Assembly (NCBI RefSeq): GCF_057098645.1
Contig: NZ_CM169472.1
Direction: 5' to 3' (one strand)
DNA length: 64,000 nt
Numbering within the stretch: the first letter of the stretch is position 1; each line of letters begins with the position of its first letter. This document shows, one piece after another, positions 1-3,000 of this stretch. A program made the position numbers.

Positions 1-3000
1 TCCAGATCTTCAAAGGCTTTACGTACTGCCGACAGCTCCGCGTCAGTTTGTAGCGGATCTTCGCCCATAATGTACGCGGCACGCACTTCGCCATGCGCTG
101 CGCGGTGCGGCAGCTCGCTGATGCGATAGCCGGTATGCGCTGGCAGGCTTTCCACGCCCCAGGCTTTGGCGAATTTCTCGCGGTTAGCCGGATCTTTCAC
201 ATACTGGTATCCCGGATACGTATCCGGCAGCGCGCCCATATCGCAGGCACCCTGAACGTTGTTCTGACCACGAACCGGGTTAACACCCGCATGTGGCTTA
301 CCGAGGTTACCGGTCAGCATCGCGAGGCTGGTCAGAGAACGCACGGTTTCCACGCCCTGGTAGAACTGGGTTACACCCATGCCCCACAGGATGGCGGCGC
401 TTTTCGCCTGGGCATACATCCGTGCCGCCTGACGAATCTCACTGGCGCTGACGCCGGTGATATCTTCAACCGACTCCGGCGTGTAGCCTTCAACGATTTT
501 ACGATACTCTTCAAAGCCTTCTGTACGGGAAGCGACGAATGCTTTGTCGTACAGATTTTCTTCAATAATGACATGGCCCATCGCATTCAACAGCGCGATG
601 TTCGAGCCGTTTTTCAGTGCAATGTGCATGTCAGCAATGCGCGCGGTTTCAATTTTGCGCGGATCGCAGACGATAATTTTCGCCCCGTTACGTTTAGCGT
701 TAATTACGTGATTCGCCACGATTGGGTGGGAATCCGCCGGGTTGTACCCGAAAACGAACACTAAATCGGTATTATCAATTTCGTTAATAGCATTGCTCAT
801 TGCGCCATTACCGACCGATTGGTGCAGACCTGCAACCGATGGGCCGTGTCAGACACGAGCGCAGCAGTCAACGTTATTGGTACCAATAACGGCGCGCGCA
901 AATTTTTGCATTACATAGTTGGTTTCGTTACCCGTACCACGCGAGGAGCCGGTCGTCTGGATGGCATCCGGACCGTACTTCTCTTTGATGGCGCTCAGGC
1001 GCTCGGCAACGTAATTCAGTGCCTCATCCCAGGAAACAGGTTCGAGTTTGCCGCCACGCTGGCGACGGATCATGGGGGTTTTCAGGCGCGGGGTCAGGAT
1101 CTGGGTATCGTTAATGAAATCCCAGCCATAATAACCCTTCAGACACAGGGTACCCTGGTTGGTTTTCCCCTGCGCTGCCTCCGCCCGGACGATTTTGCCG
1201 TTATCGACGACCAGGTTGATTTTGCAACCTGATGCGCAATAGGGGCAAACCGTGACGACTTTTTTCATCGGTCTCGCTCCAGTTAATCAAATCACGCATA
1301 CGCGCTCTCGACTACAGTATGCATCTTTTATGCCACATTTTATTTGGGGTCATTCCCTGATATTACGGGCACTATTTATTCAAAACTCTGACGAAAAACA
1401 GGCTGTCGTCAGTTTTGACGTGACGAAACGAAATACCGCGTGACAGCCATCACGCGGCAGACATTTTATTTTTTCTCGACGACGGGACCTGCCTGATACC
1501 CGCCGCCCAGCGATTTCATCAACTGAATGCTTTGGATCACCCGGCGGCTGTCCAGCATCAGTAATGACATCTCTTCGGCAAGTACTGGCAACCGGGCTTC
1601 AGTGGCCTGTAAGCGGCTGGTTAAGCCGCGCTGATAGGCGGCCTCGGCAGCGCGCTGGGTGAAGCGCGTGGCTTCCACGCGTTCAGCCTGCATCTCTCGC
1701 TCGTCGTTGAGCGTTTGCAGACGCGTGCCGTTGACGGCAACGTCACGCACCGCGTTCAGTACTGACTGGTTGTGACGTTCAATCATCATGTTTCTGGCGG
1801 CGCGCGTGCCTTCGAGATTGGCATTCAACCGTCCACCGTCAAACAGCGGCAATTTCAGACCCGGGATGAAGTTGAACTGGCGACTGGTTTTTTTGAATAA
1901 GGTATCCAGGTGGATGGAGTCCAGACCGAAAAACGCTTTGATATCAAAGCTCGGGTAGAACAGCGCCCGCGCGGAATCCACCTGATCTAATGACGCCTGA
2001 ACATACCAGCGCATGGCTTGCAGATCCGGGCGTCTGGCGAGCAACTCATAAGAGAGTGTCGCCGGAATGCCGGTCTGGACTCGTGGTAATGCCACAGGTT
2101 TGATCTCCGGCATATCGCTGGCTCCCGCGCCAATCAATGCACGCAGAGATTCTCGCGTTTCGGTGATTTGCCCTTTGACGGCAGCAATTTGTTTATCGAC
2201 CGCCAGAATCTGTGCCCGCGCGCCGTGGAAAGGCACTTGCGCTTCCAGACCGTGCGCCACTTTACTTTGGTGCGCTTTCACCGCGTAATCAATCACATCG
2301 CGAGTTTGTTCTAACAGATCGAGCATCTGATAGCTGGCCTGCATACTGTAATAAAGCTGCGCTACGCCCGTGGTCAGCGATAGCTCTACTGCTGCGGTTT
2401 CTGCCAGCGCGGCATTATGCGCGCCAATGGCGGCGGCAACCGCTGAGCGATGCACACCCCACAAATCAAGATCCAGTCCGGCAAACAAACCGACTGTGGC
2501 TTCCGTATAGTACGGCCCGTCCATCCCCAGTGCTGGCGCATCCATTGCATAAGGGCTTAAAAAGCCGTTCGCCGAGACACGTTGGCGGTTGAGCATCCCT
2601 AACGCTGCCACCTGCAACTGTGAACCGGCATCTAACAAATCGGCCTGGGACTGCGCTTTTTCTTCCCGCAGTTTCGCTTCTGCGAGGGTGTGTGAACCGC
2701 TTAGCGTCCGCTGGATCAGGGCATCCAACTGCGGGTCATTGAGTTGTTTCCACCACTGCGCCTGCGGCCAGCCGGAGCTGGCAAGATGAATATCATCGGC
2801 CAGTTTGATTTGTTCCGGTTTGAGCTGTTGATGAGGCGCAGAATCCTTACGTACCAGGGCACAGCCGGAAATCAGCGTCGTGCTGCCGAGAATGCTGCAC
2901 AACAGCAGACGTGAAAGTTGACGATTGATCATTGCGTGGCTCCTTGTACCTGTTCCGTGGCGGGTGTTAATGCCGGGGCTGTCCAGTCTGGCAAGCGGGC

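What the first reader, a model, noticed from the sequence alone, without database searches (positions are those of the whole stretch)
1316..1440. fdhF sigma54 promoter with upstream TGACG/CGTCA repeat cluster
A -24/-12 element (TGGCAT-N6-TGCAT) lies about 45 nt upstream of fdhF. About 80-120 bp further upstream there are repeated TGACGAAA / CGTCA motifs, including the inverted repeat TGACGAAAAACAGGCTGTCGTCA, positioned where the FhlA enhancer is expected. The mdtP terminator hairpin sits in the same short intergenic space, so enhancer and terminator are tightly packed.
Basis: partly seen in the sequence, partly recalled or inferred. Interest (0 to 1): 0.25.

Follow-up and report, generated by a model that had tools for sequence, protein, structure and literature searches.

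The report
Known fdhF sigma-54 promoter and enhancer

Summary
The window is E. coli chromosome. The 197-bp mdtP-fdhF spacer (1269-1465, genes on the minus strand) differs from K-12 MG1655 by one base.

- **Promoter.** GTGGCATAAAAGATGCA (1336..1320) is the exact sigma-54 site found by ChIP-seq in E. coli. It is also bound by the RpoN holoenzyme in vitro. The predicted start is about 1309, 41 nt before the ATG at 1268.
- **Repeat cluster.** The four TGACG/CGTCA pentamers (1389-1425) are the only such cluster in the 64 kb. They lie at -80 to -119.
- **Conservation.** Across 80 fdhF loci from many enterobacterial genera, 73 of 81 sequences keep the palindrome CGTCA-N4-TGWCG. They also keep a flanking TTCGWCA and a downstream TTTCGTCA at an invariant +27. 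The distance to the promoter is almost fixed (85 bp in 62 of 73). The flanks, the palindrome spacer and the upstream gene all vary.
- **Enhancer identity.** This is the signature of the FhlA enhancer. The published FhlA consensus and matrix nevertheless score it poorly, and I could not retrieve the original mapping papers.
- **Addition.** A fifth conserved element, GTCAC (1444..1440), sits inside the 3' arm of the mdtP terminator hairpin (1459..1434). Terminator and enhancer therefore overlap.

Novelty: already known.

The parts
1..1268 (-). fdhF coding sequence (5' part; runs off the window start); ATG at 1268..1266, in-frame TGA (selenocysteine codon) at 851..849
   Evidence: ORF list; RefSeq annotation of a 100% identical record; SECIS_2 match at 802-856
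1277..1280 (-). Shine-Dalgarno GGAG inside the conserved AACTGGAGC block
   Evidence: Sequence; conservation 0.8-0.9 across 81 loci
1309..1309 (-). Predicted transcription start (G), 12 nt downstream of the -12 C, giving a 41-nt leader
   Evidence: Inferred from -24/-12 geometry. It equals the predicted start of Bonocora et al.: 19 bp from the motif centre and 41 bp from the fdhF start (PMC4591121). Not mapped here.
1320..1336 (-). Sigma-54 promoter GTGGCATAAAAGATGCA (GG at 1334/1333, GC at 1322/1321)
   Evidence: Only match in the window. Identical to ChIP-seq site OS41. gSELEX peak. A TGG[CT]A-N6-NTGCA element is present in 78 of 81 fdhF loci.
1340..1372 (-). Moderately conserved block between enhancer and promoter (CCCGTAATATCAGGGAATGACCCCA; consensus CCGTAAnnTC...ATACCCACA), role unknown
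   Evidence: Conservation profiles. Read by eye against the IHF consensus WATCAANNNNTTR it matches poorly.
1389..1396 (-). Half-site H4, TTTCGTCA (-87..-80); followed by the conserved GAGTTTTG at 1388..1381
   Evidence: T[CG]GTCA lies at an invariant +27 from the palindrome in 72 of 73 loci. Near-maximal information content.
1406..1411 (-).
1416..1420 (-). Half-site H2, CGTCA (left arm of the palindrome CGTCA-AAAC-TGACG, centre about -104.5)
   Evidence: The palindrome is kept in 73 of 81 sequences while its 4-nt spacer takes 7 different sequences
1421..1428 (-). Half-site H1, TTTCGTCA (TTCGACA in most other genera), a direct repeat of H4 32 bp away
   Evidence: TTTCGACA and TTTCGTCG also occur in the hyc-hyp control region.
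1439..1444 (-). Distal element H0, GTCACG (direct repeat of GTCACG at 1424..1419, 20 bp apart), lying in the 3' arm of the hairpin
   Evidence: D5. GTCA[CT] at this position occurs in 50 of 58 loci without mdtP or a hairpin and in 13 of 14 with them; control windows give 0-9 of 58. Its role as an FhlA contact is inferred, not shown.
1424..1459 (-). mdtP intrinsic-terminator-like hairpin (stem-loop 1459..1434) plus T-rich tail TTTCGTTTCG (1433..1424)
   Evidence: Terminator scan. Energy -19.6 kcal/mol, z = -4.0. In mdtP-linked loci 90% of cells are paired and 3 pairs carry compensatory changes.
1466..2932 (-). mdtP coding sequence (stop codon TAA at 1468..1466)

Best explanation
The segment is the control region of fdhF (formate dehydrogenase H).

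Shown:
- RNA polymerase with sigma-54 binds the -24/-12 element at 1336..1320.
- A block of GTCA-type half-sites lies upstream: H1 TTTCGTCA, the H2/H3 palindrome CGTCA-N4-TGACG, and H4 TTTCGTCA. It spans -80 to -119 and is conserved in sequence, internal spacing and distance to the promoter across enterobacterial genera.

Inferred, from the known properties of sigma-54 and the FhlA regulon:
- Sigma-54 polymerase sits at the promoter as a closed complex that cannot start on its own.
- The block is the enhancer (upstream activating sequence) for the formate-sensing activator FhlA.
- When formate accumulates, an FhlA oligomer bound there contacts the polymerase by DNA looping and uses ATP hydrolysis to open the promoter. 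Transcription then starts at about 1309.
- The same-orientation half-sites (H0, H1, H4) are 20 and 32 bp apart, about 2 and 3 helical turns. That places them on one face of the DNA.

The mdtP terminator hairpin directly abuts this enhancer and overlaps it. Its 3' arm carries the distal GTCAC element, and its T-rich tail runs into H1. Whether GTCAC is an FhlA contact is inferred only.
For: - Identity and annotation. There is a 1-nt difference from MG1655 across the spacer, so K-12 data transfer.
- The exact motif is sigma-54 ChIP-seq site OS41, with fold-above-threshold 41 and an EcoCyc-confirmed promoter (PMC4591121).
- RpoN holoenzyme gSELEX peak in the fdhF-mdtP spacer (PMC8743547).
- Salmonella fdhF is sigma-54-bound and 29-fold dependent, with FhlA as activator (PMC3844500).
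- FhlA binds upstream of fdhF and hyc, on one side of the DNA (PMC11291172).
- No sigma-70-like promoter in 1000-1800.
- The pentamer cluster is unique in the window.
- Phylogenetic footprint: 73 of 81 sequences keep the palindrome, H4 is at +27 in 72 of 73, and the palindrome-to-TGGCA distance is 85-86 bp in 65 and 76-77 bp in 8. Meanwhile leader length varies from 25 to 58 nt and the upstream gene changes.
- Half-sites are shared with hyc-hyp, hydN and hyf. Atlantibacter and Arsenophonus fdhF carry TGTCG/TGACA-type versions at the same position.
- In loci where the promoter has decayed (L076, L080, L083) the enhancer is degenerate too.
Against: - No FhlA-binding experiment could be consulted or run. 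The deletion and footprint papers (Birkmann & Bock 1989; Schlensog et al. 1994; Leonhartsberger et al. 2000; Wang & Gunsalus 2003) are not held.
- The published 16-mer FhlA consensus CATTTCGTACGAAATG matches the region with at best 7 mismatches.
- The published 14-column FhlA matrix gives at best 8.2 bits (CGTCAAAACTGACG), rank 99 in the window. Sequence models alone would not have called this site.
- The start site is predicted, not mapped here.
- The loci are phylogenetically related, so counts of loci are not independent events.
Confidence: 0.9

Rival explanations
1. The repeat cluster is bound by a regulator other than FhlA, and FhlA acts elsewhere or indirectly. Candidates are the FhlA paralogue HyfR, another enhancer-binding protein, or a nitrate- or molybdate-responsive factor.
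For: The published FhlA consensus and matrix fit poorly.
Against: - The position and fixed 85-bp spacing to a sigma-54 promoter are typical of an enhancer.
- Half-sites are shared with the other FhlA-dependent control regions.
- Reviews and primary papers name FhlA as the fdhF activator that binds its upstream region.
Confidence: 0.06
2. The inverted repeats act at the RNA level as part of the mdtP 3' end (extra stem-loops of the terminator region), not as a DNA enhancer for fdhF.
For: The repeats directly follow the terminator hairpin, and several can pair: I2, I4 and I5.
Against: The block is conserved, with the same spacing, in 58 loci where mdtP is not the upstream gene and no stable hairpin precedes it. 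It keeps a fixed distance to the fdhF promoter, not to the upstream gene. The 5-bp CGTCA/TGACG stem is weak.
Confidence: 0.02
3. The cluster is a chance concentration of a pentamer that is common in this genome.
For: TGACG is over-represented window-wide: 206 copies against 137 +/- 11 expected. Random placement gives a cluster of at least 4 somewhere in 64 kb in 4% of trials.
Against: It falls in one specific 197-bp spacer, at enhancer distance from a verified sigma-54 promoter. It is close to invariant across genera while neighbouring bases are free to vary.
Confidence: 0.01

Closest known systems
E. coli K-12 fdhF promoter and upstream activating sequence (Bock laboratory, 1987-2000)
   Same: It is the same locus. 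The spacer differs from MG1655 by one base, at window 1344, which lies outside the promoter and the repeats. The sigma-54 motif is identical to ChIP-seq site OS41.
   Different: Nothing of substance differs. From my own memory only, the UAS was mapped by deletion about 110 bp upstream of the start. That agrees with the block centred near -100 to -108 found here, but I could not retrieve the paper to check the exact limits.
FhlA enhancers of the hyc-hyp intergenic region, hydN and hyfA in E. coli
   Same: All have a sigma-54 promoter (hydN's -12 half departs from the consensus) with clusters of YGTCR / TTTCG(A/T)C half-sites some 60-110 bp upstream. TTTCGACA and the octamer GACACGTC occur both in hyc-hyp and in the fdhF consensus of other genera.
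   Different: E. coli fdhF uses CGTCA/TGACG arms rather than TGTCG/TGACA. The arrangement of its half-sites does not match the published 16-mer consensus CATTTCGTACGAAATG.
Salmonella Typhimurium fdhF (STM4285) sigma-54 promoter
   Same: TGGCATAAAACATGCATA is bound by sigma-54 in ChIP-chip, and FhlA is the assigned activator. It differs by one base from the window's element. The S. enterica arizonae locus L014 keeps the whole enhancer and the mdtP hairpin.
   Different: Hairpin stem bases differ, with compensatory changes.
NtrC/NifA-type enhancers of sigma-54 promoters in general
   Same: Dyad-symmetric sites lie about 80-150 bp upstream. They act by looping to a closed sigma-54 complex and show helical-phase-sensitive spacing.
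   Different: The half-site sequence differs. The activator is controlled by a ligand (formate), not by phosphorylation.

Membership tests
Sigma-54 (RpoN) dependent promoter | GG and GC doublets exactly one turn apart (TGGCAC-N5-TTGCW), positioned about 12 and 24 nt before the start | tested here: met
   TGGCAT-AAAAG-ATGCA at 1335..1320, the only match in the window. Conserved in 78 of 81 fdhF loci.
Sigma-54 (RpoN) dependent promoter | Bound by sigma-54 holoenzyme | tested here: met
   Taken from the literature on an identical sequence: ChIP-seq OS41 (PMC4591121) and gSELEX (PMC8743547).
Sigma-54 (RpoN) dependent promoter | No competing sigma-70 promoter drives the gene | tested here: met
   Zero sigma-70-like sites in 1000-1800. 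This is a weak test by consensus only.
Sigma-54 (RpoN) dependent promoter | Mapped transcription start about 12 nt downstream of the GC | not testable with these tools
   The start at 1309 is predicted from geometry. EcoCyc lists the promoter as confirmed according to PMC4591121.
FhlA-dependent enhancer (formate regulon UAS) | Cluster of repeated or dyad sites about 80-150 bp upstream of the sigma-54 promoter | tested here: met
   H1-H4 at -80..-119. The spacing of 85 bp is conserved.
FhlA-dependent enhancer (formate regulon UAS) | Match to the published FhlA consensus or matrix | tested here: inconclusive
   Best 16-mer match has 7 mismatches. Best matrix score is 8.2 bits, rank 99 in 64 kb. 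Half-site words are nevertheless shared with hyc-hyp, hydN and hyf.
FhlA-dependent enhancer (formate regulon UAS) | Evolutionary conservation linked to fdhF rather than to the neighbouring gene | tested here: met
   73 of 81 sequences keep the palindrome. mdtP is the neighbour in only 14 loci.
FhlA-dependent enhancer (formate regulon UAS) | Direct FhlA binding, and requirement of the site for formate induction | not testable with these tools
   The primary papers are not held. Secondary sources state that FhlA binds upstream of fdhF.
Rho-independent terminator (mdtP 3' end) | GC-rich hairpin just after the stop codon, followed by a U-rich tract | tested here: met
   11-pair stem at 1459..1434, starting 6 nt after the stop, with tail TTTCGTTTCG. 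Energy -19.6 kcal/mol, z = -4.0. The U-tract is interrupted, and the pattern scan alone is at chance level (1 found, 1.0 expected).
Rho-independent terminator (mdtP 3' end) | Structure conserved with compensatory changes where the gene is present | tested here: met
   90% of cells paired and 3 pairs with double changes; slid controls give 19-59% paired. The hairpin is present in 11 of 14 mdtP-linked loci against 1 of 58 others.
Rho-independent terminator (mdtP 3' end) | Transcripts end at the U-tract | not testable with these tools
   Needs 3'-end mapping.

The most novel reading that the evidence does not exclude
The distal GTCAC(G) element at 1444..1439 is a genuine fifth contact of the FhlA enhancer. 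If so, in Escherichia and other mdtP-linked genera the same bases serve twice. In RNA they form the 3' arm and tail of the mdtP terminator. In DNA they form the upstream edge of the fdhF enhancer. The terminator would then also shield the enhancer from read-through transcription coming out of mdtNOP.
Probability: 0.4. Interest if true: 0.25.

Novelty: already known. Interest (0 to 1): 0.1.

Why it matters
It matters little as a discovery. fdhF is a textbook sigma-54/FhlA-controlled gene, and the promoter is experimentally confirmed.

The useful outcomes are practical:
- The enhancer anatomy is laid out in window coordinates.
- Cross-genus comparison gives a cleaner description of the fdhF enhancer than the published consensus or matrix, both of which fail to score it. 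The description is TTCGWCA, then CGTCA-N4-TGACGA, then TTTCGTCA at +27, with the palindrome starting 85 bp upstream of TGGCA, plus a distal GTCAC.
- The enhancer and the upstream gene's terminator share bases. This is relevant to anyone cloning 'the fdhF promoter' for formate biosensors or deleting mdtP.

Tried and rejected
1. **Published FhlA models.** I scanned with the FhlA matrix (PMC7658346, Table 2) and the 16-mer consensus (PMC4987338). Neither singles out the region, so they are rejected as evidence either way.
2. **Primary literature.** I looked for the mapping papers by keyword, by sequence string and by PMC id. None is held. The '-110 UAS' statement therefore rests on my memory only.
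3. **IHF site between enhancer and promoter.** TATCAGGGAATGA matches WATCAANNNNTTR poorly, and the 3' half is not conserved (read). Not claimed.
4. **CRP-like core in the hairpin.** GTGA-N6-TCAC becomes ATGA/TCAT or CTGA/TCAG in other genera, with the pairing kept. It therefore behaves as an RNA stem, not a CRP site.
5. **Known non-coding RNA in the spacer.** Rfam finds only the fdhF SECIS.
6. **Conserved 5'-leader hairpin (GCGC-N4-GCGC).** The consensus fold is only -2.4 kcal/mol with almost no covariation. Left as a note.
7. **Sigma-70 promoter.** None found.

Full report
**What is there.** The window is E. coli chromosome. Bases 1100-1700 are 100% identical to E. coli O145 RM9872 and occur in 5419 of 5426 complete E. 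coli genomes. They are annotated there as the end of mdtP followed by the start of fdhF. Both genes are on the minus strand. mdtP occupies 2932..1466. The fdhF ATG is at 1268, and the gene runs off the window start with its in-frame TGA at 851..849. The 197-bp spacer differs from K-12 MG1655 by one base, at window 1344. Data obtained on K-12 therefore apply directly.

**The promoter.** On the fdhF strand the sequence GTGGCATAAAAGATGCA lies at 1336..1320. It is the only match to TGGCAYN5WTGCW in the window. The pattern alone is not significant, since 0.58 matches are expected by chance. The decisive evidence is external.
- The same 17-mer is sigma-54 ChIP-seq site OS41 of Bonocora et al. It has a fold-above-threshold of 41 and a predicted start 41 bp before fdhF. 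The promoter is flagged as experimentally confirmed in EcoCyc (PMC4591121).
- RpoN holoenzyme binds the fdhF-mdtP spacer in genomic SELEX (PMC8743547).
- The Salmonella counterpart TGGCATAAAACATGCATA is sigma-54-bound. Salmonella fdhF expression is 29-fold sigma-54-dependent, with FhlA as the assigned activator (PMC3844500).

From the -24/-12 geometry the start falls at G1309, which gives the same 41-nt leader. No sigma-70-like promoter is present in 1000-1800.

**The repeat cluster.** TGACG/CGTCA pentamers start at 1389, 1407, 1416 and 1421. This is the only place in the 64 kb with three or more such pentamers within 40 bp. With the pentamer's real frequency (206 copies, itself above the shuffle expectation of 137), random placement gives a cluster of four somewhere in the window in 4% of trials.

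Read on the fdhF strand, the anatomy is:
- H1, TTTCGTCA, at 1428..1421.
- The palindrome H2/H3, CGTCA-AAAC-TGACGA, at 1420..1406.
- H4, TTTCGTCA, at 1396..1389.

The octamer occurs only five times in the window. Two of those copies are here, 32 bp apart. Relative to the predicted start, the block spans -80 to -119.

**Is it functional?** I fetched 80 fdhF loci from one genome per species of Enterobacterales, covering Escherichia, Salmonella, Citrobacter, Klebsiella, Kluyvera, Enterobacter, Kosakonia, Pluralibacter, Atlantibacter, Arsenophonus and others.
- In a MAFFT alignment of the 215 bp upstream of the ATG, the best-conserved non-coding stretches are the ribosome-binding site, the -24/-12 element and the block 1428..1382.
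- Anchored without gaps, 73 of 81 sequences carry CGTCA-N4-TG[AT]CG.
- The 4-nt spacer of the palindrome takes seven different sequences while the arms stay fixed.
- H1 is TTCG[AT]CA.
- H4 lies at exactly +27 in 72 of 73.
- The distance from the palindrome to TGGCA is 85 bp in 62 loci, 86 in 3, and 76-77 in 8, roughly one helical turn less. The leader, by contrast, varies from 25 to 58 nt.
- mdtP is the upstream neighbour in only 14 loci. In Enterobacter, for example, the neighbour is a divergent response-regulator gene. The block therefore travels with fdhF.
- In three loci that have lost the promoter (L076, L080, L083) the block is degenerate as well.

This pattern is what an enhancer-binding-protein site looks like: conserved arms, a free spacer, fixed internal spacing, fixed distance to a sigma-54 promoter, and independence from the neighbouring gene.

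**Is it the FhlA site?** Secondary sources state that FhlA activates fdhF, binds its upstream region, and contacts one side of the helix (PMC11291172; PMC4987338; PMC11841067).

The E. coli hyc-hyp, hydN and hyfA control regions, which I read from MG1655, contain related words: TTTCGTCG, TTTCGACA, TGTCGACG, TGTCA and CGACAC-GGG-TGTCG. In Atlantibacter and Arsenophonus, fdhF carries TGTCG/TGACA-type repeats at the equivalent position. The E. coli CGTCA arms thus look like one variant of a YGTCR half-site.

Two things count against a clean sequence-based assignment. The published 16-mer consensus matches with at best 7 mismatches. The published matrix gives 8.2 bits, rank 99 in the window. I could not obtain the deletion and footprinting papers. 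My recollection that the UAS was mapped about 110 bp upstream of the start is consistent with the coordinates here, but it is memory, not a result.

**Terminator and overlap.** The hairpin TGCCGCGTGAT-GGCT-GTCACGCGGTA (1459..1434) starts 6 nt after the mdtP stop and is followed by TTTCGTTTCG. It folds at -19.6 kcal/mol, with z = -4.0. Among mdtP-linked genera the stem is kept. 90% of cells are paired, and three pairs show compensatory double changes. Slid controls give 19-59% paired.

The new point concerns the hairpin's 3' arm, which contains GTCAC(G) at 1444..1439. This is a direct repeat of the GTCACG inside H1/H2, 20 bp away. GTCA[CT] at this position is present in 50 of 58 loci that have neither mdtP nor a stable hairpin there. 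The mean energy of that segment is -6.9 kcal/mol in those loci against -15.8 in mdtP-linked loci. Control windows further upstream hold the motif in 0-9 of 58.

The element therefore belongs to the fdhF control region. In E. coli the terminator has been built around it, and the terminator's T-rich tail runs into H1. The same-orientation GTCA elements H0, H1 and H4 are 20 and 32 bp apart, about 2 and 3 helical turns. This fits binding to one face of the DNA. Whether H0 is actually contacted by FhlA is an inference.

**Verdict.** The feature is the already known fdhF sigma-54 promoter and its formate/FhlA enhancer. The only additions are a sharper comparative description of the enhancer and its overlap with the mdtP terminator.

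Noticed in passing
window 802-856 (-), TGA at 849-851: The fdhF selenocysteine insertion element: Rfam SECIS_2 at 87 bits (gathering score 70), directly at and after the in-frame TGA that ends the 139-aa ORF. This is the known feature of fdhF.
   Followed up: partly
window 1340-1372 (-): A moderately conserved block lies between enhancer and promoter (CCGTAAnnTC...ATACCCACA in most genera; E. coli has ...AATGACCCCA). It resembles neither the IHF consensus nor the FhlA half-sites, and its role is unexplained. The single difference from MG1655 (1344, A for C) lies in this block.
   Followed up: partly
window 1294-1305 (-): A short GC-rich palindrome, GCGCGTATGCGT, lies near the 5' end of the predicted leader. 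It recurs with different loops in many genera (GCGCAAATGCGC, CGCATTTATGCG, GCGGAAACGC). The consensus fold is only -2.4 kcal/mol with almost no covariation, so it may be a small mRNA 5' hairpin or nothing.
   Followed up: partly
L076, L080, L083 (about 1200-1500 in each): In Entomohabitans, Leclercia sp. 29361 and Enterobacter sp. BIGb0383, the -24/-12 element upstream of fdhF is lost or broken, and the enhancer is partly degenerate too. This suggests regulatory decay or rewiring in these lineages.
   Followed up: no
L077, L078, L082 (Atlantibacter) and L081 (Arsenophonus), about 1300-1420: These fdhF loci keep a sigma-54 promoter but use a different enhancer, built from TGTCG/TGACA/TGTCA repeats (for example ATGACATGACACTTTTGTCGAAT). 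It resembles the E. coli hydN and hyc-hyp regions more than the E. coli fdhF one.
   Followed up: partly
L064 513-1244 (-) and similar Enterobacter/Lelliottia loci: In Enterobacter-type genomes the gene upstream of fdhF is a divergently transcribed 243-aa protein. Its sequence looks like an OmpR-family response regulator; I read this from the sequence and ran no family search. These loci also have a shorter leader (about 28 nt) and extra TGACGGAAATT and GTCACATC motifs upstream.
   Followed up: no
whole window: The pentamer TGACG/CGTCA is over-represented window-wide: 206 copies against 137 +/- 11 in dinucleotide shuffles. I did not look for the cause.
   Followed up: no
window 1380-1418: In E. 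coli the H3/H4 inverted repeat extends to a larger imperfect dyad: TCAAAACT(CT)GACGA ... TCGTCAGTTTTGA on the + strand (repeats I2 and I4). The outer GTTTTG is also conserved in other genera.
   Followed up: no
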